The notes beneath the pieces are model-generated. The model was not told the DNA's origin. It made no database searches and saw only the letters and a list, made by a program, of their open reading frames with translations. DNA of 11,164 nucleotides from a virus. The stretch is from UHGV virus genome UHGV-0778032; one strand, given 5' to 3'. Both the position numbers and the translations under genes were made by a program. Shown in pieces: positions 1 to 11,164 of this stretch; position 1 is the first letter of the stretch; each line of letters opens with the position of its first letter.

Positions 1-127
1 CTTCTGAGGCATAATCGAAGGTATGGATAATCTCAAAATCACCAGTATCTGCTGGTGCATTCTTCCATCTGGAGAAGCGGGATTTTAATTGCTGGTGTGT
101 GAAGAGTTCAGCATTACGAGTTAAATC
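1..127. repeat. Left copy of perfect 127-bp terminal inverted repeat (reverse complement of 11038..11164)
   Basis: Reverse complement of 1..127 compared block by block with 11038..11164 and found identical; identity breaks at 128 versus 11037. Lies inside codons 26-68 of the outward-reading minus-strand ORF. Confidence 0.95.
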
Positions 128-205
128 TTTCCATGTTCCGTTATTCTCACGGACAAGATGACCTCTATGGCGATAAAACGCATGATAATCAAATGTGCAT
201 AGCAT
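1..205 (-). CDS. Hypothetical protein, 5' portion only (68 codons, continues past left edge)
   Basis: ATG at 205-203 overlaps the TAA stop of the upstream 96-aa ORF (TAATG, translational coupling). Open frame to position 1 (MLCTFDYHAFYRHRGHLVRENNGTWKDLTRNAELFTHQQLKSRFSRWKNAPADTGDFEIIHTFDYASE...). No family recognised. Confidence 0.5.
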   Translation of the reverse strand, partial: MLCTFDYHAFYRHRGHLVRENNGTWKDLTRNAELFTHQQLKSRFSRWKNAPADTGDFEIIHTFDYASE

Positions 206-495
206 TAAACCTCCAATTTATCAGCAAGCTTGCAAACCTTATCGCTCAAGACCTGAATCATTGAGCAGCCTGTACCTTTAGTTTGTGTTCTCAGTTCATC
301 CAATTGCTCTACTGTGATACGGATAGCCTTAGAACCCTCTGCAACGTCCTTGATAGCGTCAAACGGTGTAAGGGCTGTGTGTTCCTTCAGAATCTCACCA
401 ACAAGTGCTGTGTGGCTCATGGCTGGGTATTTGTCTTTGATTGCTGCCAGTCTGGAATATGCCTCTGGCAAAAGGCGCGTAACTGTGTGTCTCAT
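205..495 (-). CDS. Putative small DNA-binding protein with two ribbon-helix-helix-like units (96 aa)
   Basis: ATG at 495-493 with AAGGA 7 nt upstream and a consensus-like promoter. Strand-helix-helix pattern appears twice (TVTRLLPEAYSRLAAI...ALVGEIL and IRITVEQLDELRTQ...MIQVLSDKV). Assignment is by pattern only, not by search. Confidence 0.5.
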   Translation of the reverse strand: MRHTVTRLLPEAYSRLAAIKDKYPAMSHTALVGEILKEHTALTPFDAIKDVAEGSKAIRITVEQLDELRTQTKGTGCSMIQVLSDKVCKLADKLEV

Positions 496-531
496 TAAAT
501 TTTCCTTCTTAAAATCTTTGACTTATAACTA

Positions 532-560
532 ACTTTAACATATTTATAACATATTGTCAA
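532..560 (-). promoter_or_regulatory. Candidate sigma70-type promoter for the 96-aa gene operon
   Basis: On the minus strand: TTGACA (rc of 555-560), 17-nt spacer ATATGTTATAAATATGT ending in TGn, then TAAAGT (rc of 532-537). The spacer holds a direct repeat ATATGTT x2, a possible operator. Confidence 0.5.
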
Positions 561-582
561 CAACTCATTTACATGTTAATAT
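554..582 (+). promoter_or_regulatory. Candidate sigma70-type promoter reading rightward into the 61-aa ORF
   Basis: TTGTCA at 554-559, 17-nt spacer, TAATAT at 577-582. Its -35 hexamer overlaps the -35 of the divergent leftward promoter by 5 bp (back-to-back arrangement). Confidence 0.5.
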
Positions 583-632
583 GGTTATAGGGGCTGATAC
601 AGGTCATTCCCTTTGATAAATAAGGGGAGTTA

Positions 633-818
633 ATGGGCTTTCTTGAAACAATTGCTGAATCTCACAGATTCGCAAGCTTAGGTTGCTTTGTGTTTCTGGT
701 GCTTCTGGTGTATCAGCTTTTAAAAATGATTATCGCCAAAAGTACACGATTCAATTTCAGCATTAAGCTTTTCAAATATGAAATCACAATTACGATTGAT
801 GATGGTAAAACAAACTAA
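633..818 (+). CDS. Small hydrophobic protein (61 aa), putative membrane peptide
   Basis: ATG at 633 with strong SD AAGGGGAG just upstream and the promoter above. Predicted N-terminal transmembrane stretch (FASLGCFVFLVLLVYQLL) followed by a basic/polar tail. Its stop overlaps the stop of the convergent rep gene. No homology claimed. Confidence 0.45.
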   Translation: MGFLETIAESHRFASLGCFVFLVLLVYQLLKMIIAKSTRFNFSIKLFKYEITITIDDGKTN

Positions 819-1951
819 CGTTTTGTGATGATATTGGTGGCCCTCAGATTACCGGGGTCACCGTCTTTTAATCGTAGCTGGTGGACTGAATCCCAGATAT
901 CAAAATGAAACATCGTAGCAAACTTTAAAGCATCAATTTTTAAACCTGTTACGCCATCATAGAAGAAATAATCCCTCCCTTCCTTCTTTGGTCTAATCCG
1001 GTAAACTTTCCCTTTTCCTTTCTTCGGTTCAGTGTGGGTTTTCTTTCTTGGTGTGAAAGAAAAGTCATCATCGTCACCATCATCAAAGTCATCAAGTTCA
1101 TCAATTCTGTTCTTTAGCTTAGCCTTTCTGAATCTTTCTTTAATTTCTGCTTTACGCTGTTCACGTTTCAATTCCTCTTCAGGGTCTTCTTCATCATCAA
1201 GGTAATCATCGAAGGGGTCCATCTCATCATCAGTGGCGGGGCACTGTGTGTTTTTATGGTCACTATCAACATTCACATCAGAGATTTCTTTGTCTTGTTT
1301 AGAAGTCCTTTTAGAGCTTACTTCAAGGTCATCTAAGTCAGATGTTTTAGAAGCCTCTTTAGTAACTTCACTATCAAGGTCAGATTCATTCACAGAAAGA
1401 AAATCATTTAATTCATCCAAAGAAAGAAAATCATCTTCATTAATGCCATCATTAAGTCCAGTCTCTTTACTCTTATCTATAATATTATTATCTAATGTTT
1501 TATCTAATAACTTATCTAACACGGGTGACATTTTGTCACTACCCCCATGACATTTTGTCACTGGTAGTGGTGTCATTTTGTCACTGGTAGTGGTGTCATT
1601 TTGTCTTACTGATGCTGCAACTTCCTGTGATGTAGGTCTTACAAGTAATTCCGGCTTATCATCCAGTGTGAATACACGATAAGTGCTTTGACGCCCCTGA
1701 TTCTTTTGCACCTGAATTAAACCGTGTTTCTCAAGTGTCTCAATGGCTCTGATTGCTGTTCTCTTTGATACGCCAGCCATATAAGCGAGATGGTCAATAC
1801 TTGGTGAATATGATTTGTATTTCTCTTCATAGAAGTTACAGCTATGAACCATGACCATATAAATTAATCTTGCTGCTGCGTTAATTTCTTCTGAAAGTTG
1901 AGAGATTCGCACATCAAATTTATAAAACTGATTTGGGTTATATTTAGACAT
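815..1951 (-). CDS. Replication initiator protein, phage lambda O-like architecture (378 aa)
   Basis: ATG at 1951-1949 with GAGGT 9 nt upstream. N-terminal ~90 aa has a winged-helix/HTH-like pattern (...SKRTAIRAIETLEKHGLIQV...) resembling the replication protein O N-terminal domain, by eye. The iterons and AT-rich tract lie inside the coding sequence, followed by a highly acidic Asp/Glu-rich region. Confidence 0.6.
   Translation of the reverse strand: MSKYNPNQFYKFDVRISQLSEEINAAARLIYMVMVHSCNFYEEKYKSYSPSIDHLAYMAGVSKRTAIRAIETLEKHGLIQVQKNQGRQSTYRVFTLDDKPELLVRPTSQEVAASVRQNDTTTSDKMTPLPVTKCHGGSDKMSPVLDKLLDKTLDNNIIDKSKETGLNDGINEDDFLSLDELNDFLSVNESDLDSEVTKEASKTSDLDDLEVSSKRTSKQDKEISDVNVDSDHKNTQCPATDDEMDPFDDYLDDEEDPEEELKREQRKAEIKERFRKAKLKNRIDELDDFDDGDDDDFSFTPRKKTHTEPKKGKGKVYRIRPKKEGRDYFFYDGVTGLKIDALKFATMFHFDIWDSVHQLRLKDGDPGNLRATNIITKR
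1440..1520. other. AT-rich tract adjacent to the iterons (candidate DNA unwinding element)
   Basis: Run of A/T-rich sequence (ctataatattattatctaatgttttatctaataacttatc) immediately beside the iteron array, matching iteron-plus-AT-rich origin organisation. Functional role is inferred. Confidence 0.4.
1526..1610. repeat. Four tandem ~23-bp iterons (TGACATTTTGTCACT-like), candidate replication origin repeats
   Basis: Copies start at 1526, 1548, 1571 and 1594 (spacing 22/23/23 bp, about two helical turns). The first two contain the palindrome TGACA-TTT-TGTCA; copies 3 and 4 are preceded by identical GGTAGTGG. They are translated in frame as peptide repeats within rep. Confidence 0.7.
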
Positions 1952-2313
1952 TCATAAATTACCTCATACGTGAAAAGGCCAACCGGATAAAACCGATTAG
2001 CCTGTGTGATTAAAATATCTGGGGATTGATGGACTGATAAAGAAGCCCATGCCTGAAACAGTACGATGATTAAAACGCTGAGGTATACCCTGAATGAGAG
2101 GTTAATATACGCCAACCATCTGACACCTCCCCAAGTGTTACCACTTCAAGACATGAACTTTTTTATCAGCCCATATAGAAACTATAACAGATGTAATTAT
2201 AAATTGCAACAATTATTTCACAGAATAATTACTGATTGGTCATTTATTGTTCACAGGGATACTTCTTAATATCTAAATCACCTGTCTTGTAAATGACCAT
2301 ATTTATGAGAATT

Positions 2314-2976
2314 TTAGCTCAACCTTTGAGCAATCCTGTATGACGTGCTCAGAGGCATTCTGAGAACATCTGCAATGTACTTAATGGGTTTTCCTTGCCT
2401 GTATAGTTTTATGAAGCCGTCGAGCGTCTCAGGTGGGTAAATGGTGGGTCTTCCTCTTAAGCCTCCTCTGTTAATGATGGTTAACGGTAGCAATGTATCA
2501 GCACAGCAAATCATCTGTGTAATTTCATGCCTGCGTGGTTCTTTTTTAAAAACAACGACTGCACTAGGAAACGGTGAACGAATAGTAAGCCCGTTATGCC
2601 CTGCTGGTGGAAGGTATTTAACTGCACGATGAAGAATACGGATTTCATGGCAAAGCGGGTTTGTGAAGATGTGCTTAAGCCAGTATATGGTTTGGGGTCG
2701 GTACGGTATCAGGAATACCGCTAAATCTGCTTCAGACGCTTTTACGAGGAATGTTTTAGTGTCGCTGTATGGTGGGTTACAGAATACCCGCTCACCATCC
2801 CATGACTGATTGCGAATATCATCGGTGAACCGTGGTAGCAATGCGTCGTGCTTAGTTGCAGCACCATCTAGCGTAAGACCAAATTCACGGTGTAAGTTCT
2901 TAAATAACAAAAATGGAGTTCTCCAGCAATCAGAACCCCCATGATGTTTCCCGATTAAAATATGCTCAATTGACAT
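2314..2976 (-). CDS. Phage-type Dam-family DNA N6-adenine methyltransferase with C-terminal resolvase-like HTH (220 aa)
   Basis: Motifs WRTP, CNPPYS (NPPY catalytic motif of amino-methyltransferases) and FPSAVVVF in the order expected for phage Dam methyltransferases. C-terminal ~50 aa (GRPTIYPPETLDGFIKLYRQGKPIKYIADVLRMPLSTSYRIAQRL) resembles the HTH of small serine recombinases. ATG at 2976-2974; no obvious SD. Confidence 0.7.
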   Translation of the reverse strand: MSIEHILIGKHHGGSDCWRTPFLLFKNLHREFGLTLDGAATKHDALLPRFTDDIRNQSWDGERVFCNPPYSDTKTFLVKASEADLAVFLIPYRPQTIYWLKHIFTNPLCHEIRILHRAVKYLPPAGHNGLTIRSPFPSAVVVFKKEPRRHEITQMICCADTLLPLTIINRGGLRGRPTIYPPETLDGFIKLYRQGKPIKYIADVLRMPLSTSYRIAQRLS

Positions 2977-3223
2977 AAGAAATAAAAATTTTTATTGCAA
3001 TCACTCTTGACAAGGTTTACTCTCTTTTAAGAGATACTTAACAGGTTTTCTAAACGGATATCCTTTCTGGGATATCTATCTTTTATCTTAAAAGTTTTTA
3101 CAGATACTTTAAAGATATCTGTATTAAATCTGTACAGTAACTTTTCAGAGTCTGAAAATTTTTATAAAAAATGACTAGCCCTCTTTGAATCTCATCTTCC
3201 CCGAATCTTCGAAAATATCTGAC

Positions 3224-3259
3224 TAGTTGATTCGGTTAGTTGGGCTTGTACCAACCCCT
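3224..3259. repeat. Composite site: X (3224-3241, TAGTTGATTCGGTTAGTT) overlapping Y (3238-3259, AGTTGGGCTTGTACCAACCCCT) by AGTT
   Basis: X has a perfect 18-bp inverted partner at 3730-3747; Y has a 21/22 inverted partner at 4031-4052. Both found by direct reverse-complement comparison. Confidence 0.85.
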
Positions 3260-3716
3260 AATCTACCTCATGATGTCTGTAGCTGCTAAGTACCCGTCAC
3301 ACCAGCTATGTGACCCCCTTTGCAGAATTTTAAAATATCTATTGACTTTCTTCATAGTATCTGTTAACTCCACCTCAAGAAACCTTCATCACACTTCAAA
3401 GCATCTATCAAGAAGATTTAACCTATCAATAGCTGTAACATTTTATAGCTCTGTGAAGTCCTGCCCAGTTTTCTCTGTAACAGCTACAAACTTCTGTGAC
3501 CTTATATGTCAATGACTTACAAGACATGCTCTCAAGGTGCTGTATAGCCACTTATCTTCAAATACACAAAACCCTTATAAATCAGTACTGATACATATAC
3601 AGTGTGTTTTTAACATAATAGCTGTTTTACGCACTAATCGTGTTCTACATGAAATCTGTATAGATATTAAGGTGTCTGTAAGTGATTTTTTAAGAGGAAC
3701 TACGAAGGAACTATGA

Positions 3717-3747
3717 GGTTGATTCCTAGAACTAACCGAATCAACTA
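3717..3747. repeat. Inverted copy of X (3730-3747) inside a palindromic site GGTTGATTC-N12-GAATCAACT
   Basis: AACTAACCGAATCAACTA is the exact reverse complement of 3224-3241. The flanking sequence makes an imperfect palindrome, with a direct repeat GGAACTA x2 just upstream (3696-3714). Confidence 0.85.
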
Positions 3748-4030
3748 TAACCATCACCTCCTAACTTTCACATAGCTGATTGTTATCTCTTGCAACTGTA
3801 ACGTATGGTGACCAACTGCATGAATAGCGTTATATACTCCTGTATATAGCACTTTTCTAGGAGTCGAGAGAGGGACGACTAACACCCTGCATAGTTCCCT
3901 GAAAAGAGACTTTACAGATTCTTTATATATTTCAATAAGTTAGGATAAAAAGGGGCTATGTCGATACTGCGTAGAATCTGTGTAAAACTGCTTAGATATT
4001 TGAAGAAATACCGTTAAATTGCATAGTCAT

Positions 4031-4052
4031 AGGGGTTGGAACAAGCCCAACT
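4031..4052. repeat. Inverted copy of Y (21/22 identity)
   Basis: AGGGGTTGGAACAAGCCCAACT equals the reverse complement of 3238-3259 with one mismatch; 158 bp upstream of the recombinase start. Confidence 0.85.
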
Positions 4053-4209
4053 ACACCTGTTTATGTCCTGTTATTAACAGGTTTCTTAGAAAACCGAATA
4101 GACTTCATTCAAGGGTCATTGTATTGTAGCTATTCGGCATTGTAGCATTAGCCATAACGTTTATAAGTTCATCTTTAAATGATAATCAATTGCATGGGAG
4201 TTTATCACC

Positions 4210-5730
4210 GTGAGAACCGTAATAACATACTTGAGATTCTCATCAGCCACACAAGGTGCTGAAGGTGCTGATTCAACCAGACGACAAAATGAGCTATTCA
4301 AACAGTGGTTAAGGAAGAATAGCGATGCTCAAGTAGTAGCGTCTTTCAGTGATGAAGGTCTATCCGGTTACAAAGGTAAGCACTTGTCAGGGCAATTTGG
4401 GGATATGCTTTCCCGTATTGAAAGTGGGGAGTTTTCAAAAGGTACAATTCTGTTAGTCGAAGCTATCGACCGTATAGGCCGCCTTGAACATCTTGAAACA
4501 GAAGCCTTGATGAATCGCATTATTGCTCATGGTATCGAGATTCACACTCTACAGGATGGGCTAATCTACACAAGGGATGCTCTATCCGATGATTTAGGAA
4601 TCTCAATCATTCAGCGGGTTAAAAGCTACCTAGCGCATCAGGAGAGTAAGCAGAAGTCTTTCCGTGTTAGCGAGAAGTGGAAACAACGTGCAAAACTTGC
4701 CCTTGCTGGTGAACAGCGTTTAACAAAGATGGTTCCCGGATGGATTGACCCTGAGACTTTTAAACTCAATGAACACGCTGAAACTGTAAGACTGATTTTC
4801 AAGCTGCTGCTAGATGGTGAAAGTCTGCATAACATTGCACGTCACCTACAGGCTAATAACATTAGTTCATTCTCACGACGTAAAGATGCTAACGGGTTTA
4901 GTGTTCATTCTGTGCGCACTATCTTAAGGTCAGAAACAACGATAGGTACACTACCAGCATCACAGCGCAATGACCGCCCCGCTATACCGAACTACTACGA
5001 AGCCGCTATAGATGTATCAACGTTCAATAAAGCTCAAGAGATTCTTGGTAAGAACCGTATAGGCCGTACACCTGCAAGTGATAATCCATTAACGATTAAC
5101 ATCTTCAAAGGTCTGTTTAGGTGTCAGTGCGGGGCTAGTGTTCACCCTACAGGGACTAAGAATAAGTATCAGGGCGTTTATCGGTGCAATAACCATCTTG
5201 ATGGTCGCTGTGATGTTCCTCCGTTGAAGCGTAAACCGTTTGATAAGTGGATGATTGATAATTTTCTGGGGATGATTGACGTGGGGAATGATGGAGAAGC
5301 AGAGGGGAAGATTTCATCTCTACAGCATGAGGTTGAAATTGTCACAACCAGAATCAAGAAAGCTACCGCCCTACTTCTTGAGATGGATGATATTGATGAA
5401 CTAAAAATTCAGCTTAAGGAACTGAACCAGAAGCGCACAGAACTACAGACCACGATTGATAACATGAGGCGTAAGGCTTCACTCACTGATAAGGAACTAC
5501 CCCAGCTTAAAGATATTGACCTGACAACTAAAGCGGGTCGTGTCGAGTGTCAATTAATTTTGTCCAAACATCTAAAAGGGCTTACATTGGGTAAGGGTTC
5601 AGTAACTATAACGCTACAGAACGACACTGAAATCACCATACCTACAAACCCGTTACCGCTAAATGATGGGTCACCAATCTTTGAAATTGCTGATAAAGAG
5701 CTACTGGATATTGACGCTTATCAACTGTAA
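4210..5730 (+). CDS. Large serine recombinase (506 aa)
   Basis: N-terminal YLRFSSATQ fits the catalytic-serine motif of the resolvase/invertase catalytic domain. Followed by a long recombinase-type middle region, a Cys-rich zinc-ribbon-like segment (CQCG...YRCNNHLDGRC) and a C-terminal coiled-coil-like region. GTG start at 4210 with GGGAG 9 nt upstream. Confidence 0.8.
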   Translation: MRTVITYLRFSSATQGAEGADSTRRQNELFKQWLRKNSDAQVVASFSDEGLSGYKGKHLSGQFGDMLSRIESGEFSKGTILLVEAIDRIGRLEHLETEALMNRIIAHGIEIHTLQDGLIYTRDALSDDLGISIIQRVKSYLAHQESKQKSFRVSEKWKQRAKLALAGEQRLTKMVPGWIDPETFKLNEHAETVRLIFKLLLDGESLHNIARHLQANNISSFSRRKDANGFSVHSVRTILRSETTIGTLPASQRNDRPAIPNYYEAAIDVSTFNKAQEILGKNRIGRTPASDNPLTINIFKGLFRCQCGASVHPTGTKNKYQGVYRCNNHLDGRCDVPPLKRKPFDKWMIDNFLGMIDVGNDGEAEGKISSLQHEVEIVTTRIKKATALLLEMDDIDELKIQLKELNQKRTELQTTIDNMRRKASLTDKELPQLKDIDLTTKAGRVECQLILSKHLKGLTLGKGSVTITLQNDTEITIPTNPLPLNDGSPIFEIADKELLDIDAYQL

Positions 5731-5735
5731 TTTTC

Positions 5736-5757
5736 AGGGGCTATGAAGCCCCTTTTT
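5736..5757 (+). terminator. Rho-independent terminator after the recombinase gene
   Basis: AGGGGCT-ATGA-AGCCCCT hairpin (7-bp stem, 4-nt loop) followed by TTTT, starting 6 nt after the TAA stop at 5728-5730. Confidence 0.6.
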
Positions 5758-5762
5758 ATGTC

Positions 5763-6554
5763 TCAATAAGTGCCCTTCTTATTCGGATTCACAGAGTACT
5801 TTCGTAAAGCATTACCCGACTTAAGCACTTTTGAAGCCTGCTCATTAGCTGAGGCTGTGAAGGTGCTCTCACCATTTTTAACGCTAACGCTCTTAGAGCA
5901 CGTTACACGGGCTTTTAATGCTTCATCTGATAACTCACTTGCCGAATAGCTAAAAAGCTCTTTACAGGTCAGCATAGGGCTTCCAAGACTCGTTGTAGTG
6001 TTGCCAGTGTTCTTTTTACTGGTAGCACCACCGTCATTCGTGGTAGAAGTCCTTCCGGTCGCAGCCGAGATATCAGTCTGACCCACAATAGCTTTAAAGT
6101 TAATTTCCTGAAAAGTTAATTGGATTCTAAGACCATTGGCAATACCAACATCTTTAGAGGCTTTAAAGTTTGTAATAATTGAGTCGTCAATCTTAATACC
6201 ATCTTTACAGACAACTGAGATAATTTGCTTCTGGTCACGCCAGTTTTCAAGAGTGTCTATGAAGTTTTCCACCAGCTTATTATCTCTTGAGATGAGGATA
6301 CTACCGGATTCACCAACCACAACCACACCACTGATTGAAATAGTTCTGGGTGAACGCATTACATTATCTGTTACAGCCTGCCCTGATTGCATATTTTGAG
6401 TGGTCACCATCATAGGGCTGTCAAATTCCATGTTCTCAGTTGCTGATAGTGACAAGAAATTATCTGGTTGGCCTTGTAGATGGAAGTAAACACCATCTTT
6501 GCCAGTGTAACGAAGCTGATTAGTGTAAATCATTAAATTATCCTTTGATTTCAA
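5763..6554 (-). CDS. Hypothetical protein downstream of the tape-measure gene (possible tail structural protein)
   Basis: The ORF-track start at 6554 is TTG. The in-frame ATG at 6533-6531 has AAAGGA 7 nt upstream and is the more plausible start (256 aa). Contains a Thr/Gly/Asn-rich linker. The structural role is guessed from position only. Confidence 0.55.
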
Positions 6555-6609
6555 AGGCTTAGTGTATTTTAATCATTTTTAACCAAGCTTTTGATATTTA
6601 AGTGTTTTA

Positions 6610-6682
6610 TCTGTTAAGCGTGAGCTACGTGAAAAATAATTTTTGGTGGGTATATCTGTTCAGGAGATTTCACGTAGCACAC
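6610..6682 (-). repeat. Copy A of conserved 73-bp dyad element (GCTACGTGAAA ... TTTCACGTAGC arms)
   Basis: 71/73 identical to 8845-8917 in the same orientation. Lies 14 nt after the tape-measure stop and about 75 nt upstream of the next gene start. Confidence 0.9.
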
Positions 6683-6696
6683 GGATATATAAGAAA

Positions 6697-8829
6697 TCAT
6701 TCTTCCTCTGGATAGCTTGAACTTAAGAGCATATCCTGCGTGAACTGGTCATTAGCCGATTGATTGAAAGTAAAGAAAGCTGGTTCATCCGGTCTAACAG
6801 TTGCTTCACCAGTGATATTAACTGATAAAGGCTTCTTAGTTTCTGCTGTTAAAGCGTCTACCTTGCGTGATAGTTCACTAATAGTCATTGCAAGTTGAGC
6901 ATTGCTATTAACCATGTCACCTGTGATAGCTGGTGGAGTTGATTGTGTGTTATTAACAAGGTTACTCATTGGCTCTTGGAAGTTAGCAATTTTATTAGCC
7001 GCACCATTAAACCAGTCAGCGATAGAACTACCAATCTTAGCCCATCCATCATTAATTTGATTTGGCTTAGATGAATCGCCTTTGTATTCAGGGTTGAAGT
7101 TTGTCTCTGTGCCAATACCTGATTGGTGTAAGTTCGGATTCTTAGCCGCTTCAGGGTTTAAATTATCAAGAGCAAAGTTCACCAACTCAGCATAAAGAAC
7201 AACTCTACCAACTTTATTTAGCGCACCACCTGAAGAACCAGCCTTGCCAGCTTTAGCTTTATTAACAGCATCACCGAATGAAGTAACAGCATTTGCAAGG
7301 TTTAACAAGCCTCCAGCTACATTTGCAGCCTTTTGAGCAGTAACAGCTACGGCAAGCATCTTCAAACCATCAATTAACCCATCAGATAAACCATCAACAA
7401 TTTTTTTCTGAGTGTCATTTAGTGAACGGTAAGCTAATGTCACCTCATCGAAGAATGCTCTTACCCTGTAGCTGATATCAGTCAATGAATCGACACCATG
7501 TGACATAGAAGTCATGAGACTACCAAGAGATTCACCAAGACTTTTACCACTTCCACCAAGAGCGTTTAAAAGCGTTGTTAAGCTTCTTGTAAAATCTTGC
7601 AGACCATCTTCAGAACCTCTGAAGATACTATCAAGCGTGGTATTCCAAGAGTTTTTCAGGTTCCCTAGTTGTGCCTGTGTACTTTCTGAAATAGCTTTCC
7701 AGCCACCTTTAGCGGTGATTTGTTTATTCAGTTCCTGAGTGACCTTCTGAAGAGTATCGGCAGATTTTAAAGCCCCCTTCTTCATGGCATCAAATAGCTC
7801 TTGTTCATTCCTTCCGGTTGCTTTAGCGAATACCTGAACCATACCAGGAACAGCTTCAGCTAATTGCCCCTTAAGCTCTTCAGCCATAACCTGACCCTTA
7901 CCAGCCATCTGTGATAATGCTGTCAGTGCTCGCTTAATCTCTTCTTCACTTCTCCCCATCAGACGAGCATAGCCAATCATATTTTTAAAAAGTTCTTCAG
8001 AACCTTGAATACCCATAGACTCTTTAGCTGAAGCACCAAAACCAGCAAACTGTGATTGCAGTTCAGCGATATCTAAACCCGTTGTTTGAGCTAATGACTT
8101 TGTGAACTCTTTTACCTGACCTGCATCTTTATCAAATACGAAATCAATTGAACGCTCAGCACTTGCACGCTGTAAACCAATTTCCATAATCTTCTGATAA
8201 CTGGCTAATACAGCCTGCATTGAGATAAATGCACCTGCTGTTTTAACTGCTGCTGAAGACAGGTTATCAAGACTATTAGCTGTTCTGTCACCATTAATGC
8301 TGGTGGATGTATGACCTCTGGCTTTAGCAATTGCTTCTCTGACTGAAGCGTTTAACTGAGCTAACTTCTCATTGAATTTTGAAGAATCCATTGACCCGGC
8401 TTTAGCAGATAGCCCGTAAAACTGAGATTTGATGTATTTCTGCAAAATAGGGTCAAAGCCTTTTAGCTTAGACATATTAGCTGAATAAGCTGCTGTGATT
8501 GCTCTGTTGCCGCTAATTCGTGGCTGTCTCGGTTGTTTTGGAGGATTAACAGCATCGTTAACCTGACTTGTGAAACGGAAAACTTTTGTGTTTCTTGCTC
8601 TAGCTTCCAGACGGTCAAAGGTCTTATTAATTTTTCCTTCCATTGACTTCAAAGAACTTGTCAGATTGCTATCAAGTTGCCTTGTATTAATCTTGAAACC
8701 TTTGTTAAGGTTCTTTTCAATTCTTTGTGCTGACTGCAAAGCTGCCTTTTCAACTCTTTGCAAGCCCTTAATAACGTTTTCATTGAAGCCTAGCTCAACG
8801 ATAAAACTATCAACTTTAAATTGTGCCAT
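6697..8829 (-). CDS. Phage tail tape-measure-domain protein (710 aa)
   Basis: Long Ala/Gln/Leu/Ser-rich helical protein. The segment ...GRSEEEIKRALTALSQMAGKGQVMAEELKGQLAEAVPGMVQVFAKATGRNEQELFDAMKKGALKSADTL... matches my memory of the conserved tape-measure domain. ATG at 8829-8827 with GAGGTGA 9 nt upstream. Confidence 0.7.
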   Translation of the reverse strand: MAQFKVDSFIVELGFNENVIKGLQRVEKAALQSAQRIEKNLNKGFKINTRQLDSNLTSSLKSMEGKINKTFDRLEARARNTKVFRFTSQVNDAVNPPKQPRQPRISGNRAITAAYSANMSKLKGFDPILQKYIKSQFYGLSAKAGSMDSSKFNEKLAQLNASVREAIAKARGHTSTSINGDRTANSLDNLSSAAVKTAGAFISMQAVLASYQKIMEIGLQRASAERSIDFVFDKDAGQVKEFTKSLAQTTGLDIAELQSQFAGFGASAKESMGIQGSEELFKNMIGYARLMGRSEEEIKRALTALSQMAGKGQVMAEELKGQLAEAVPGMVQVFAKATGRNEQELFDAMKKGALKSADTLQKVTQELNKQITAKGGWKAISESTQAQLGNLKNSWNTTLDSIFRGSEDGLQDFTRSLTTLLNALGGSGKSLGESLGSLMTSMSHGVDSLTDISYRVRAFFDEVTLAYRSLNDTQKKIVDGLSDGLIDGLKMLAVAVTAQKAANVAGGLLNLANAVTSFGDAVNKAKAGKAGSSGGALNKVGRVVLYAELVNFALDNLNPEAAKNPNLHQSGIGTETNFNPEYKGDSSKPNQINDGWAKIGSSIADWFNGAANKIANFQEPMSNLVNNTQSTPPAITGDMVNSNAQLAMTISELSRKVDALTAETKKPLSVNITGEATVRPDEPAFFTFNQSANDQFTQDMLLSSSYPEEE

Positions 8830-8844
8830 TGTTCATATTTCACC

Positions 8845-8917
8845 TCTGTTAAGCGTGAGCTACGTAAAAAATAATTTTTGGTGGGTATATCTGTTCAGAA
8901 GATTTCACGTAGCACAC
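8845..8917 (-). repeat. Copy B of conserved 73-bp dyad element, immediately upstream of the tape-measure gene
   Basis: 71/73 identical to 6610-6682. Its gene-proximal end runs directly into the SD of the tape-measure gene. Confidence 0.9.
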
Positions 8918-8927
8918 ATACAAAAAA

Positions 8928-8964
8928 GGGAGAAACTACCGAATAATATCGATAATCTCTCCCC
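8928..8964 (-). terminator. Candidate terminator (minus strand) between the 71-aa gene and copy B
   Basis: GGGAGA (8928-8933) pairs with TCTCCC (8958-8963) and is followed on the minus strand by TTTTTTG. The loop is long (24 nt), so this is weak. Confidence 0.3.
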
Positions 8965-9012
8965 GTGTTATAGATTCGATAGAACCTATCTCATACACCC
9001 AACCAATCTTTT

Positions 9013-9228
9013 TTAATGCCTGACAAGATAATGTAGTTCCGTTTCACCTATAATTTGAGCATCGGAAGGGATACGGTCGATACACCACTTTGGAATCTTG
9101 CGTGTTTTTGGTTTGCGTGAGGTGATAATTTGATGTTTGGTTTTAATTCTTAAGGCTGGCTTAGTTTGTAACTTTAAGTTTTCACAAACAGACTTAATAG
9201 TTTCATAGCGTTCTGTTAAATCAATCAT
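9013..9228 (-). CDS. Hypothetical small basic protein (71 aa)
   Basis: ATG at 9228-9226 with GAGGTGA 4 nt upstream; Lys/Arg-rich middle; 22-nt gap from the upstream 234-aa gene suggests an operon. No family recognised. Confidence 0.5.
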   Translation of the reverse strand: MIDLTERYETIKSVCENLKLQTKPALRIKTKHQIITSRKPKTRKIPKWCIDRIPSDAQIIGETELHYLVRH

Positions 9229-9250
9229 TCATCACCTCACATATGCATAA

Positions 9251-9955
9251 TTAAACAGCCTTGCTAAATTCTCGTGGAACACTCAGAAAATCATTGAAGC
9301 TGATAATCTGTGCCAACTCTTGACGGTACTCCTTAGCCAGCGCTTGATGGTCACTAATCAGCTTAGCCAGTCTTGATTTCAGCAAATTAATCTCATTTTC
9401 TCTTGCTTTCATCAGTTTCTCTTTGGCAATTTCTTCAAGCTCAGCTTGTGATTTATCAGCAACAATTAGAGACAGTCGATGTGGTGCTCTGACAGCTCTT
9501 TCTGTACGAACAACTCTTTGACCTTCTGGTAAATCTGCAATCACTTTACCAATCTCTACAGGGTCATACCCCCAACCATCACGGTCTAGTCGAGAGAAAT
9601 AAGCATAAGAATTGGTTTGAAGCTCCATCAAAATAGCCATTTCGTCGATTTCGTCTTCAAGCTTGGACTGAATTTTCTCGTAAACACTTCTCATTGCTTC
9701 TTGAGAGTCTCGAAGGTCTTTGAAATATTTGCGTTGCAGCTTCAGTTTCAAATCAAGCTCACATTCCTCATTCATCGAAAAATCAATTTCAACTCTTGGA
9801 ATCTCGATTGGTTCTGGTGGAATATATGGACCTTTATTTACTTCGTGCGATTCCCGCCAAGCTCTATCAAAAGATTCACGCAAAGTTAATTCGTGAATAT
9901 CAAGTGCACTTGGTCTGTTCTCAACAATCATTTCGTGTTCATTACGAATGGACAT
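9251..9955 (-). CDS. Hypothetical protein (234 aa), charged and predicted helical
   Basis: ATG at 9955-9953 with AGAGGA 8 nt upstream. Long uninterrupted frame, Glu/Lys/Arg-rich with coiled-coil-like C-terminus. No family recognised. Confidence 0.6.
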   Translation of the reverse strand: MSIRNEHEMIVENRPSALDIHELTLRESFDRAWRESHEVNKGPYIPPEPIEIPRVEIDFSMNEECELDLKLKLQRKYFKDLRDSQEAMRSVYEKIQSKLEDEIDEMAILMELQTNSYAYFSRLDRDGWGYDPVEIGKVIADLPEGQRVVRTERAVRAPHRLSLIVADKSQAELEEIAKEKLMKARENEINLLKSRLAKLISDHQALAKEYRQELAQIISFNDFLSVPREFSKAV

Positions 9956-10093
9956 TAATATTTTCCTCTTCTAAGATAATTTATGTTTCAGTTTTTAAAA
10001 AGCACACCTGACATCCTACAAACTTAGAAGAGACTTAAAAGGCGGTTTGCCAAGTATGCTTTTTAAAAGCTGAAAAAAGCCCTAAACATAGGT

Positions 10094-10117
10094 GATTCGG
10101 ATATTCTAGGAATCATC
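10094..10117. repeat. Diverged inverted copy of the 3717-3747 site (GATTCGG-N4-TCTAGGAATCA)
   Basis: Shares GATTCGG plus an exact 11-mer TTCTAGGAATC (10104-10114) with the reverse complement of 3721-3747. Sits in the long intergenic region upstream of the 234-aa gene. Confidence 0.5.
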
Positions 10118-10214
10118 CTCATCTGTGAAGGGCTTTGAAGGTTTGCTTTAACGTTAACGAAGTTTCAGGAAAAACTTTCTTTAAAAGCTCTGTTTAAAAA
10201 CTCTTAAAGAAAAC

Positions 10215-10235
10215 GCCCTAATCATGAGTTAGGGC
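10215..10235 (-). terminator. Candidate rho-independent terminator (minus strand)
   Basis: GCCCTAA-TCATGAG-TTAGGGC hairpin followed on the minus strand by GTTTTCTTT. Located about 300 nt downstream of the 143-aa ORF stop. Confidence 0.4.
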
Positions 10236-10539
10236 AAAGCTGTAAGGGTTCAATAATGAATGATTAAGCACTTTTTGAGATGACCTCTCAGACTAAACTG
10301 AAAGGCCATGACGAAAAGCATTGCACCTTTCCAATCAGAATATAGTTATCATCGATGTAGAGACGATTAATATTTTAATTCAAGGAGAATTGCTCTCCCT
10401 ATATATACAATTATGTCATGCTCAAGGTTATTTGTCAACAGCTTTTTAACAGATTGGTAACATCAATTCTTATTTACTGTGTTACCCATCCAGCAACCAA
10501 CAAATAACCCTAAAGCCGTCCAGAGAATAACGAGCGTCA

Positions 10540-10971
10540 TTACATAACCTCGCTGTAAGGGTTTAATTCCTGTTGAAAGGTCAGGAATACATTCAACTTC
10601 AATAGTTGCTCTGGGCTTAAATCAAGTCGATTGCACTCTTCAATGATAAAGCGCTTACTGTATGGGTCTGTTACTTCCAACTTGTGAACATAGTCACCAA
10701 GTTTAATTTCGTTGATGGTGCGTTTGTCGATATAACTTGAAGCTTCAAAGCAATGCAGGAAACAGATATTAAAGCCCGACCTGTTCAGGTCAATCAACCA
10801 ATTCATAGTTTCTTGGTCAACCATAATTTGCATTGGGTAATTGTTCATTTTTAGATTTCCCATAAAACACATCTCAGACCTCTTAAAATAGCCATTCTGA
10901 GGCCAGTAACCATGCGGGTTACAGAGGGAGTTGCACTGGCTGGTAAGGTAATTTATCAAATTAAGGTGCAA
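10540..10971 (-). CDS. Hypothetical protein (ORF-track 143 aa; likely 110 aa from internal ATG)
   Basis: The ORF-track start at 10971 is TTG with no SD. The in-frame ATG at 10872-10870 has AAGAGG 6 nt upstream and is the more plausible start. No family recognised. Confidence 0.5.
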   Translation of the reverse strand: MHLNLINYLTSQCNSLCNPHGYWPQNGYFKRSEMCFMGNLKMNNYPMQIMVDQETMNWLIDLNRSGFNICFLHCFEASSYIDKRTINEIKLGDYVHKLEVTDPYSKRFIIEECNRLDLSPEQLLKLNVFLTFQQELNPYSEVM

Positions 10972-10983
10972 CTCTGCCTGTAA

Positions 10984-11164
10984 AGTGCATTCTACCGTTA
11001 CTTAGATGGTTATTTTGAATTGTCTTTATTAATCAATGATTTAACTCGTAATGCTGAACTCTTCACACACCAGCAATTAAAATCCCGCTTCTCCAGATGG
11101 AAGAATGCACCAGCAGATACTGGTGATTTTGAGATTATCCATACCTTCGATTATGCCTCAGAAG
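10984..11164 (+). pseudogene. Start-less, promoter-less inverted partial copy of the left-edge gene
   Basis: Open + frame from the TAA at 10981-10983 to the window end. The last 42 codons are identical to codons 26-68 of the left-edge gene, but the 18 codons upstream differ and hold no ATG/GTG or SD. May be silent, or expressed only after rearrangement. Confidence 0.4.
11038..11164. repeat. Right copy of perfect 127-bp terminal inverted repeat (reverse complement of 1..127)
   Basis: Same comparison as the left copy; in frame within an open + strand frame that runs off the right edge. Confidence 0.95.

What the first reader, a model, noticed from the sequence alone, without database searches (positions are those of the whole stretch)
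6610..8917. Conserved 73-bp dyad element duplicated upstream of the tape-measure gene and the next gene
Copies at 6610-6682 and 8845-8917 are 71/73 identical and in the same orientation. Each has 10-11-bp inverted arms (GCTACGTGAAA / TTTCACGTAGC) about 37 bp apart and precedes consecutive minus-strand genes. Copy B follows a terminator-like hairpin and abuts the SD of the tape-measure gene. This looks like a dedicated late or activator-dependent promoter, an RNA processing or anti-termination structure, or a tiny MITE-like repeat. A 10-mer from one arm (TACGTGAAAA, 1967-1976) also sits just upstream of the rep gene SD, hinting at a shared regulator motif.
Basis: seen in the sequence. Interest (0 to 1): 0.6.

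Follow-up and report, generated by a model that had tools for sequence, protein, structure and literature searches.

The report
Portable 55-bp dyad flanking tape-measure gene
The two repeats are real copies of a previously unannotated, fixed-size 55-bp dyad element that sits in gene leaders of an E. coli phage-related island and, unexpectedly, next to the lox site and cre gene of phage P1 and its distant relatives; its function is still unknown.

Summary
Window 6610-6693 and 8845-8928 are direct repeats (71/73 identical over the first 73 nt), each a dyad with 11-bp arms.

The window is the excised, circularly permuted form of an ~11-kb E. coli island. It carries a serine integrase, Rep, Dam, and tape-measure and Dit genes related to Felixounavirus.

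Copy A (tape-measure stop to Dit start) was in every island examined, including Citrobacter. Copy B is optional, present in about half.

The element belongs to a wider family, CTACGTRAA-N35-TTYACGTAG, always 55 bp from arm to arm. Other members lie in:
- phage P1 at nt 119-173, between loxP and cra-cre, overlapping promoter P3cre;
- distant Cre-like modules (39-45% identity to Cre), beside their own lox-like sites;
- rV5-like phages;
- a bacterial chromosome.

The arms are invariant, the spacing is fixed, and the centre is conserved but flipped in some lineages. I found no covariation, no Rfam match, no sigma-70 consensus, and no copies in the putative helper phage.

Best guess (0.4): a DNA-level operator or architectural site for a conserved, probably host-encoded factor in gene leaders. 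Rivals are an mRNA hairpin, a selfish palindrome, and a recombination boundary. No known family fits.

The parts
6610..6693 (-). Copy A of the repeat unit. It lies in the intergenic region between the tape-measure stop and the Dit-like gene start, and this copy is the universal one in the island family.
   Evidence: the repeat finder D1. CM R1 hit at 6604-6690 minus strand, 93.6 bits. Present at this position in all islands inspected, including Citrobacter.
6624..6678 (.). 55-bp dyad core of copy A. Arms are 6624-6634 and 6668-6678; the centre is 33 nt and contains ATACCCAC and AAAAAT when read on the minus strand.
   Evidence: Sequence. RNA fold of the minus strand gives a 4+11-bp stem, z = -4.85.
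6610..6623 (-). Conserved tail 3' of the dyad in gene sense (TCACGCTTAACAGA). CGCTT is invariant across the family members in alignment A1.
   Evidence: Alignment A1 invariant columns; 73 distinct 75-mers.
8845..8928 (-). Copy B of the repeat unit. This is the optional copy, lying between the terminator and the tape-measure gene SD.
   Evidence: the repeat finder D1. CM hit at 8839-8925 minus strand, 86 bits. Present in 51 of 95 sites of this type collected. Its 61-nt core is identical to the commonest allele at this site.
8859..8913 (.). 55-bp dyad core of copy B. Arms are 8859-8869 (GCTACGTAAAA) and 8903-8913.
   Evidence: Sequence. RNA fold z = -3.73, with a G.U at arm position 8 on the minus strand.
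8927..8964 (-). Intrinsic-terminator-like hairpin (16-pair stem plus T6) immediately 5' of copy B. It is conserved in all islands.
   Evidence: scan_promoters_terminators; comparison of this intergenic region across islands.
6697..8829 (-). Tape-measure gene (710 aa), flanked by the two copies.
   Evidence: PF20155 1.5e-19, phrog_4036 3e-82.
5763..6533 (-). Dit-like 'baseplate' gene downstream of copy A. The likely start is the ATG at 6533.
   Evidence: PF21821 4.3e-19. About 82% nucleotide identity to the Felixounavirus gene that directly follows the tape-measure gene.
3643..3776 (+). Possible degenerate, expanded third copy. Arm-like TCTACATGAAATCTG and TTTCACATAGC lie about 105 nt apart, upstream of the integrase gene. 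Weak.
   Evidence: Sequence; 1-mismatch arm matches. The CM scores only 12.6 bits here, but 22.8 bits (E = 0.004) at the equivalent place in L001.
1967..1976 (+). Single half-arm (TACGTGAAAA) 16 nt upstream of the rep start codon. Probably a relic or a coincidence.

Best explanation
The two repeats are copies of a portable 55-bp dyad module. It has two inverted 9-15-bp half-sites (CTACGTRAA(WTCTG) ... (CAGAW)TTYACGTAG) held exactly 35 bp apart, a partly conserved centre, and usually a (G/T)CACGCTT tail.

I think it most likely works on double-stranded DNA. It would be an operator or architectural site bound by a conserved factor that none of its carriers encodes in common, so the factor is probably host-encoded. 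The module sits in the leader 0-35 nt upstream of a ribosome-binding site (about 55 nt upstream in the long form of copy A's site).

In this island it would gate transcription that enters the tape-measure gene (copy B, just after a leaky terminator) and the Dit-like gene (copy A).

- Shown: the anatomy, the family, the conservation pattern, and the positions.
- Inferred: that a protein binds it, and that binding regulates expression.
- The factor is unidentified.
For: 1. Arm sequence, not just pairing, is conserved over deep divergence.
- Arms are identical in a Citrobacter island whose flanking coding DNA is only 51-72% identical.
- The arms are nearly the same beside Cre homologues that are 39-45% identical to P1 Cre and whose own lox-like sites have diverged completely.

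2. Geometry is fixed.
- All 13 viral hits to CTACGTGAAN{33,37}TTCACGTAG have N = 35.
- 178 of 182 instances have the 61-nt span.

3. Arm variation follows half-site position rather than pairing.
- Position 8 is G or A in either arm, and all four combinations occur, including A.C in P1 and in phage inoa.
- Covariation does not exceed shuffles.

4. The centre is homologous but occurs in both orientations relative to the flanking gene.
- L167 matches the JK004 centre at 18/25 as reverse complement versus 1/25 forward; P1 at 12 versus 7; rV5-like at 13 versus 5.
- This is expected for recognition of duplex DNA.

5. In P1 the dyad (nt 119-173) starts 10 bp after the -35 of the annotated promoter P3cre, and its arm contains the -10. 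That is a classical operator position.

6. The hairpin is not unusually stable in some members: z is about 0 for the rV5-like and L119 versions.

7. No protein is shared among the carriers by blastp.
Against: - No binding protein is identified, and the half-site matches no regulator consensus I could recall.
- A dimer spanning 44 bp centre to centre is unusual.
- The element is always in a transcribed leader or intercistronic position, and in the islands always in one orientation (166 of 166). An RNA role would explain that equally well.
- G.U at arm position 8 is common on the gene-sense strand.
- Most versions fold much better than shuffles (z = -2.7 to -5.4).
- In one bacterial contig (L100) the element lies between convergent genes, where an operator has no obvious target.
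Confidence: 0.4

Rival explanations
1. The element acts in the mRNA. Transcribed from the minus strand, it forms an 11-18-bp hairpin with a large loop just upstream of the SD. It would serve as a processing or stability determinant (an RNase III or RNase E site, or a protective 5' or 3' hairpin) or as a translational insulator. That would uncouple tape-measure and Dit expression, which are abutting genes in the related phage.
For: - Minus-strand RNA folds have z = -4.85 and -3.73, and other members give -2.7 to -5.4.
- Orientation is constant in all island copies, and the CM scores are strongly strand-asymmetric.
- The element is always in a leader or intercistronic position, 0-35 nt from an SD in at least 7 independent contexts.
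- The C-to-T change at arm position 8 gives G.U on this strand in 11 of 21 aligned sequences.
- In Felixounavirus the tape-measure gene and the following gene abut with no spacer.
- The tail GC|UUA resembles the RNase E preference RN|WUU (from my own knowledge).
Against: - No covariation above shuffles.
- A.C mismatches occur in P1, inoa and L001 copy B.
- The stem sequence itself is conserved, which A-form RNA recognition rarely requires.
- Loop length is fixed, which a hairpin does not need.
- The centre motif is flipped in some lineages.
- z is about 0 in two members.
- No Rfam family matches.
- If the annotated P3cre start in P1 is right, that transcript would lack the 5' arm.
Confidence: 0.27
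2. The element is a selfish or neutral small palindromic module, of the MITE, REP or Correia kind. It is gained and lost in intergenic DNA by hairpin-mediated slippage or trans-mobilisation and has at most incidental effects on neighbouring genes.
For: - Copy B is a clean presence/absence polymorphism. The site upstream of the tape-measure gene is a mosaic of optional hairpin modules, with partial deletions (L097) and another small hairpin inserted inside an arm (L021, L101, L121).
- The module occurs in unrelated replicons: the island, P1-like phages, rV5-like phages and a chromosome.
- A homologue of the P1-like downstream gene lacks the element.
- Loop inversion is typical of hairpins.
Against: - No target-site duplication in filled versus empty sites.
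- 1-5 copies per E. coli genome (median 1), all chromosomal and, in every row shown, under or beside the island's tape-measure gene.
- One copy per phage genome.
- Copy A is never missing in the islands inspected.
- Arm invariance and exact length conservation across very divergent hosts indicate purifying selection.
Confidence: 0.15
3. The element is a recombination-related site. It would be either an accessory site that works with nearby site-specific recombinases (it lies 37-100 bp from lox-like sites) or a conserved boundary sequence that promotes exchange of the tape-measure cassette between islands.
For: - The order lox-like site, then dyad, then recombinase gene is conserved in P1, JK004, L167 and L170, and possibly L119.
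- The loops of island copies are mosaics of discrete 5' and 3' half-alleles. A and B alleles assort independently: L001 has v1 at A and v2 at B, while L026 has the reverse.
- Cre is reported to be more selective in vivo than in vitro, with no accessory site known (PMC2409434).
Against: - In the island the copies are not near attP (about 4088-4121).
- The island's recombinase is a serine integrase unrelated to Cre.
- A 25-35-bp centre is incompatible with a tyrosine-recombinase core site.
- A 601-bp loxP fragment extending 236 bp toward cre (so containing the dyad) gave ordinary Cre products in vitro. That experiment tested only PepA and ArgR.
Confidence: 0.1

Closest known systems
Regulatory region of phage P1 cre (promoter P3cre = pR1 of Sternberg et al. 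1986, between loxP and cra)
   Same: This is a homologous sequence, not only an analogy. P1 nt 119-173 is a 55-bp dyad with arms GCTACGTAAAATCTGT / ACAGATTTCGCGTAGC (CM 35 bits, E = 4e-7, although P1 was not in the training set). Like copy B, it lies in a leader about 30 nt before an SD.
   Different: In P1 an annotated sigma-70 -10 (TAAAAT) lies inside the arm, and Dam sites lie in the -35. The island copies read TGAAAT at that place and have no usable -35 upstream. The P1 record annotates no dyad, operator or binding protein there.
PeSL (promoter-early stem-loop) cassettes of T4-type phages (Arbiol et al. 2010; from my own knowledge)
   Same: A repeated stem-loop-containing module directly upstream of ORFs. 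It is associated with modular gain, loss and shuffling of genes. The rV5-like and L119 members have a -10-like hexamer 6 nt before the dyad.
   Different: The island copies carry no early promoter. There are only 1-2 copies per genome, and the arm sequence is conserved across unrelated replicons.
Palindromic intergenic elements that act when co-transcribed (Neisseria Correia/CREE, enterobacterial ERIC, REP/BIME; from my own knowledge)
   Same: Short inverted-repeat modules in intergenic DNA, with presence/absence polymorphism and a predicted mRNA hairpin.
   Different: No sequence similarity, no target duplication, very low copy number, and a strictly fixed length.
Two-arm sites bound across a bent centre (for example P1 parS with IHF; from my own knowledge)
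   Same: Inverted protein-binding arms at a fixed distance around an A/T-rich centre. The island arms even contain ATTTCAC/GTGAAAT, which is the P1 box A heptamer.
   Different: Most other family members read AATTCAC. There is no box B, no par genes nearby, and no IHF consensus in the centre. This is a works-like comparison only.
Intercistronic RNase III sites of T7-like phages (from my own knowledge)
   Same: A hairpin unit of about 55-60 nt between cistrons, repeated within a genome with conserved sequence.
   Different: The stem here is 11-18 bp with an open loop of up to about 33 nt, rather than two stacked helices. No cleavage data exist.

Membership tests
Sigma-70 promoter (including activator-dependent or late promoter) | -35 and -10 hexamers 16-18 bp apart, or at least a -10 with A2/T6 at a fixed place with an activator site upstream | tested here: not met
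   No promoter-like site inside either copy at 9/12 or better. The apparent TAnnnT hexamer before the 3' arm is simply the extended arm. The P1 homologue does overlap the annotated P3cre, so promoter activity in some members is not excluded.
Mimic of a helper-phage (Felixounavirus) promoter | The same motif recurs upstream of helper-phage genes | tested here: not met
   No arm, centre or tail motif above chance in the 88-kb VpaE1 genome. No CM hit better than 17.7 bits.
Intrinsic terminator | G+C-rich stem followed directly by a U run | tested here: not met
   No T run after the dyad on either strand. The scan reports only the separate hairpin at 8964-8927.
Structured RNA family (Rfam) or tRNA | A match to a curated covariance model or a tRNA model | tested here: not met
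   cmscan at E <= 1 gives nothing at either copy. ARAGORN finds 0 genes.
Conserved RNA secondary structure | Compensatory changes that keep the pairs | tested here: inconclusive
   85% of cells are paired but covariation is 0.068 versus 0.080 in shuffles. Five pairs are invariant and two have double changes. Invariant pairs say nothing either way.
MITE | Terminal inverted repeats | tested here: met
   11-18-bp inverted arms.
MITE | Target-site duplication at insertions | tested here: not met
   Filled and empty sites upstream of the tape-measure gene differ by the hairpin plus or minus 2 nt, with no duplication.
MITE, REP or ERIC-type repeat | Many dispersed copies per genome | tested here: not met
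   455 of 5426 E. coli genomes have it, with a median of 1 place and a maximum of 5. All are chromosomal and, in every row shown, lie under or beside the island's tape-measure gene. No plasmid match.
lox/rox-type tyrosine-recombinase core site | 13-14-bp inverted arms around a 4-8-bp spacer | tested here: not met
   The spacer here is 25-35 bp. Genuine lox-like 13-8-13 sites lie separately, 37-100 nt upstream, in P1, JK004 and L167.
Serine-integrase att site of this island | Coincides with the excision junction | tested here: not met
   The junction between the right and left ends of the integrated island maps to about 4027-4121, not to the repeats.
nut/boxA-type antitermination site | boxA CGCTCTT(T)A next to a short boxB hairpin, upstream of terminators | tested here: not met
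   The tail is CACGCTTAA, which lacks the CTCTT core (consensus from my own knowledge). Copy B lies downstream of the terminator, not upstream.
P1 late (Lpa-dependent) promoter | A 9-bp inverted repeat serving as the Lpa site, together with a -10 (PMC10695390) | not tested
The 33-35-bp separation of the arms and the location in the cre (non-late) region argue against it.
Dyad family defined here (CTACGTRAA-N35-TTYACGTAG) | Both half-sites, a 55-bp span, and usually a (G/T)CACGCTT tail | tested here: met
   Both window copies meet all three features.

The most novel reading that the evidence does not exclude
The dyad is the binding site of an unrecognised, conserved enterobacterial DNA-binding (or hairpin-binding) factor that controls lox-cre modules of P1-type phage-plasmids. 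It could set cre expression, or it could impose the in vivo bias of Cre toward resolution, for which no accessory site is known. A Felixounavirus-associated satellite-like island would then have co-opted the same host-factor switch to time or dose its own tape-measure and baseplate-hub genes.
Probability: 0.25. Interest if true: 0.75.

Novelty: new variant of a known kind. Interest (0 to 1): 0.5.

Why it matters
- If a factor binds this dyad, it would add a missing cis element to the lox-cre region, one of the most used recombination systems. The element lies about 100 bp from loxP in P1 and beside the target sites of distant Cre homologues.
- It would give a handle on how a probable satellite of strictly lytic Felixounavirus phages controls the two tail genes it carries.
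- Practically, the dyad is a compact signature (arms plus exact spacing). In this work it located lox-like sites and Cre-like genes in unannotated contigs (L167, L170).
- If instead it is only a tolerated palindrome, the finding is of local interest.

Tried and rejected
- tRNA and Rfam searches found nothing at the copies.
- BLAST of copy A plus flanks against the phage collection gave no match. The plasmid collection gave no match to the window.
- A search for the arm, centre and tail motifs, and for T4-type TATAAATA late promoters, in Felixounavirus VpaE1 found none above chance.
- A search for loop complementarity or identity of 13 nt or more to VpaE1 or to the rest of the window found no specific match; the only 13-nt runs were an A/T-only string and one overlapping the conserved arm. 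This rejects a guide or antisense reading.
- An apparent -10 (TAGAAT, TATTTT or TAGATT) before the 3' arm was rejected once longer-armed members showed it is part of the arm.
- A 13-nt identity between loop allele v2 and the cspA 5' UTR (AAATCTGTAAAGC), and an 11-nt identity between v1 and the cspG UTR, were noted. No arms or other similarity are shared, so I treat these as probable coincidence.
- The attC-like reading (GCTTAAC = RYYYAAC) was rejected because there is no partner GTTRRRY box.
- The ParB box A, ARG-box, CRP, DnaA-box, ops and sigma-32 resemblances were each partial and not conserved across the family (recall only).
- A regulator gene travelling with the element was rejected: blastp finds no protein shared among the contexts.
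- My first metagenome pattern had one N too many and found nothing. The corrected pattern was used.
- Literature searches for this island as a satellite found nothing. Full-text searches for the arm sequence returned only coincidental matches, such as primers.
Full report
**1. The observation**

The repeat finder reports one long direct repeat in the window, 6610-6693 and 8845-8928. It is 84 nt at 92% identity, and the first 73 nt differ at two positions.

Each copy holds inverted arms: GCTACGTGAAA (GCTACGTAAAA in copy B) and TTTCACGTAGC. They are 33 nt apart.

Both copies lie on the coding (minus) strand side of two consecutive genes:
- Copy B sits between an intrinsic-terminator-like hairpin (8964-8927: 16-pair stem plus T6) and the SD of the 710-aa tape-measure gene (6697-8829; PF20155, phrog_4036).
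- Copy A sits between that gene's stop and the Dit-like gene (5763-6533; PF21821).

A covariance model built later finds exactly two strong hits in the window, both on the minus strand (93.6 and 86 bits). The palindromic echoes on the plus strand score 36 and 26 bits.

**2. What the window is**

The gene set is:
- a Rep-like HTH protein, with four 22-23-bp iterons inside its own gene (1524-1605);
- a Dam-type methyltransferase;
- a large serine recombinase;
- the tape-measure and Dit-like genes;
- several small ORFs.

Megablast finds the same ~11-kb unit in 565 of 5426 complete E. coli genomes, always chromosomal. It lies between tonB and yciI in the examples inspected, and next to wrbA in one case.

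Relative to the integrated form, the window is circularly permuted:
- window 1018-4026 corresponds to the right end of the island;
- window 4109-8920 corresponds to the left end;
- the junction is near 4027-4121.

So the window represents an excised or concatemeric form.

The Dit-like gene is about 82% identical in DNA to the Felixounavirus gene that directly follows the tape-measure gene. In the phage these two genes abut.

The island therefore looks like a satellite or defence island tied to FelixO1-like phages. I found no paper describing it. This is context, not proof of satellite behaviour.

**3. The element within the island family**

I collected 177 instances (53 distinct 61-nt cores) from E. 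coli genomes, viral contigs and metagenomes.

*Copy A.* It was present in every island examined. These include islands retrieved independently of the element, through a neighbouring protein 65-68% identical to its window counterpart, one of them from Citrobacter freundii. In the Citrobacter island the flanking coding DNA is only 51-72% identical to the window, yet the arms are unchanged.

*Copy B.* It is optional: 51 of 95 sites upstream of the tape-measure gene carry it. That region is a patchwork of optional modules:
- the terminator tail;
- a small hairpin, GGATAGTCTTCTATCC;
- the dyad element.

The region also shows one half-deleted copy of the element (L097) and three cases with another small hairpin inserted inside an arm (L021, L101, L121). 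Filled and empty sites differ by the hairpin plus or minus 2 nt, with no target duplication.

*Alleles.* The loops fall into discrete 5' and 3' half-alleles that occur in all combinations. A and B alleles assort independently: L001 has v1 at A and v2 at B, and L026 has the reverse.

The window's copy B core is identical to the commonest allele at that site. The 71/73 identity between the two copies therefore reflects a shared allele type, not a private duplication.

*Distribution in E. coli.* E. coli genomes carry the element in 1-5 places (median 1). All are chromosomal, and every listed hit lies under or beside the island's tape-measure gene. It is not a generic intergenic repeat.

**4. The element outside the island**

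Pattern scans gave hits with exactly the same span in unrelated replicons.

*P1-like phages.* The decisive case is phage P1 itself. Nt 119-173 read GCTACGTAAAATCTGT-GAAAAATTGGCGGTGTTAGTCCT-ACAGATTTCGCGTAGC.
- This lies between loxP (nt 1-17), the LexA box and the Dam sites on one side, and cra-cre on the other.
- The annotated sigma-70 promoter P3cre (pR1) has its -35 at 104-109 and its -10 (TAAAAT, 124-129) inside the arm.
- The Cronobacter P1-like phage JK004 has the dyad at the same place.
- All 20 P1/P7-type records hit by BLAST keep the region.

*Distant Cre-like modules.*

| Contig | Cre-like identity to P1 Cre | Distance from dyad to start codon | lox-like site |
|---|---|---|---|
| L167 | 39% | 20 nt | perfect 13-8-13 site, ATAACTCCATATA-ACACCCAT-TATATGGAGTTAT, 37 nt upstream of the dyad |
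| L170 | 45% | 30 nt | rox-like site, 37 nt upstream of the dyad |

*Other members.*
- One precedes a Xer-like recombinase gene (L119).
- One precedes a 152-aa ORF (L172).
- One lies in a 2.5-kb non-coding stretch of rV5-like phages (121 records).
- One lies between convergent genes in a 701-kb bacterial contig (L100).

The model, trained without them, detects P1, L167, L170, L100 and L119 at E = 4e-7 to 8e-5.

The P1 GenBank record annotates no dyad or protein-binding site at these coordinates. I could not read the primary P1 papers.

**5. Properties that bear on mechanism**

a. *Arm sequence.* The arms are almost invariant: CTACGTRAA, often extended to GCTACGTGAAWTCTG.

b. *Spacing.* The spacing is fixed. 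N = 35 in 13 of 13 viral hits although 33-37 was allowed, and the span is 61 nt in 178 of 182 instances.

c. *How the arms vary.* Variation follows half-site position, not pairing. Position 8 is G or A in either arm, and all four combinations occur, including A.C in P1 and inoa. Pair counting shows 85% paired cells but no covariation above shuffles.

d. *The centre.* The centre is not free. Islands, JK004, L167, P1 and rV5-like members share an A(C/T)ACC(C/G)RC...AAAA motif. In L167, P1 and rV5-like phages this motif is the reverse complement with respect to the flanking gene and tail: 18/25 versus 1/25, 12 versus 7, and 13 versus 5. So the centre has inverted between the arms during evolution and is kept in either orientation.

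e. *The tail.* A tail, (G/T)CACGCTT, follows the dyad on the gene side in most members.

f. *RNA folding.* As RNA, the gene-sense strand folds into the arm helix in every member. The stability is unremarkable in two of them (z about 0).

g. *What is absent.*
- No sigma-70 consensus lies inside the island copies.
- Nothing resembling the element occurs in Felixounavirus VpaE1.
- No protein is shared among the carriers.

**6. Interpretation**

Points (a) to (d), together with the P1 promoter overlap, fit best with recognition of duplex DNA: two half-sites at a fixed distance, with an orientation-free centre. The factor would be one the carriers do not encode in common, hence probably a host factor. 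I give this 0.4.

In the island such a site, 8-35 nt before the SD (about 55 nt in the long form of copy A's site), would gate transcription entering the tape-measure gene after a leaky terminator. In islands without copy B there is no room for a promoter between terminator and SD, so read-through must feed the gene. The site would similarly gate transcription entering the Dit gene.

The mRNA-hairpin reading gets 0.27. It explains the constant leader position, the constant orientation in 166 island copies, and the frequent G.U. It does not explain the fixed loop length, the conserved stem sequence, or the flipped centre.

A selfish palindrome (0.15) explains the optional copy B and the modular mosaic, but not the selection on the arms or the low copy number.

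A recombination accessory or boundary role (0.1) is suggested by the lox adjacency and the allele mosaics. It does not fit the island positions.

All four readings are inferences. No binding, transcript or phenotype data exist.

**7. Comparison with known systems**

The only homologous known feature is the P1 cre regulatory region.

By analogy the element resembles T4 PeSL cassettes, Correia/ERIC-type palindromes, two-arm sites such as parS, and T7 RNase III sites. It fails a defining feature of each family I could test (see the membership table).

I classify it as a new variant of a known kind (a cis-regulatory dyad or leader hairpin), belonging to a family that appears to be undescribed.

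**8. Verdict**

- The repeat is real, non-random and under selection.
The RNA and MITE ideas are each partly compatible.
- The main new fact is membership in a deeply conserved, fixed-geometry dyad family that accompanies lox-cre modules.
- Interest is 0.5. Function is unresolved but directly testable, and there is a possible link to the unexplained in vivo selectivity of Cre (background in PMC2409434).

Noticed in passing
window 1-11164 (whole): The window is the excised, circularly permuted form of an ~11-kb E. coli chromosomal island, integrated beside tonB (or beside wrbA in one case). It carries a large serine recombinase, an iteron-bearing Rep, a Dam methyltransferase, and tape-measure plus Dit-like genes related to Felixounavirus. 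It occurs in 565 of 5426 E. coli genomes. It looks like an undescribed satellite or defence island of FelixO1-like lytic phages; I found no paper on it.
   Followed up: partly
window 1-130 and 11035-11164: The last 130 nt are a 99% reverse-complement copy of the first 130 nt. In the integrated island this sequence occurs once. The duplication is most likely an assembly fold-back artefact at the contig end, and about 190 bp of the island appear to be missing there.
   Followed up: partly
window 2977-4209: A 1.2-kb stretch with no convincing ORF lies between the Dam and integrase genes. It holds the attP junction (about 4027-4121) and several long inverted repeats: 3237-3260 with 4030-4053 (24 nt, 96%), and 3224-3241 with 3730-3747 (18 nt, 100%). 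It also holds a possible degenerate, expanded copy of the dyad (3643-3776, plus strand).
   Followed up: partly
window 1524-1605: Four iterons (GGTGWCATTTTGTCACT, spaced 22-23 bp) lie inside the rep-like gene. This is the arrangement of lambda-O-type origins.
   Followed up: no
window 9986-10075: Another large dyad (28-nt arms, 86% complementary, 34 nt apart) lies just upstream of the 234-aa gene. Its arm motif CAGCTTTTAAAAA recurs in a related form at 713-740, and overlapping TTTTTAAAAA-containing repeats lie at 2543-2561 and 3159-3177. It may be an operator set for an island regulator. It gave a spurious miRNA-like Rfam hit.
   Followed up: no
window 6540-6565 (minus strand): In the long form of the intergenic region that holds copy A, the SD of the Dit-like gene (AAGGA) is part of a small hairpin, CCTTTGA-AA-TCAAAGG. 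This could mask the ribosome-binding site. A shorter form of this region in other islands lacks it.
   Followed up: no
L167 6593-6626; L170 1243-1274: These are candidate target sites of two uncharacterised Cre-like recombinases. L167 has a perfect 13-8-13 site, ATAACTCCATATA-ACACCCAT-TATATGGAGTTAT (Cre-like protein 39% identical to P1 Cre). L170 has a rox-like site, TTACTATAGATAAT-AGGC-ATTATCTATAGCTA (45% identical).
   Followed up: partly
L021, L101, L121 and many other loci, between the terminator and the tape-measure start: Small optional hairpin modules (GGATAGTCTTCTATCC and GGATAAGAATTATCC) are inserted in or deleted from the region upstream of the tape-measure gene. One is inserted inside an arm of the dyad.
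   Followed up: partly
L158 (E. coli cspA 5' UTR), nt 289-301 of the locus: Loop allele v2 of the element shares a 13-nt identity (AAATCTGTAAAGC) with the cspA 5' UTR. Allele v1 shares 11 nt (TCTCCTGAACA) with the cspG UTR at a similar distance from the start codon. This is unexplained and possibly coincidence.
   Followed up: partly
L040 3629-4699 (JK004 gene_62) versus L043, L044: The P1-like phage JK004 carries an extra 353-aa gene (phrog_7674, function unknown) inserted between the dyad and cra-cre. It reuses the same CCAATCAATCA...GAGGTG leader that precedes cra in P1.
   Followed up: partly
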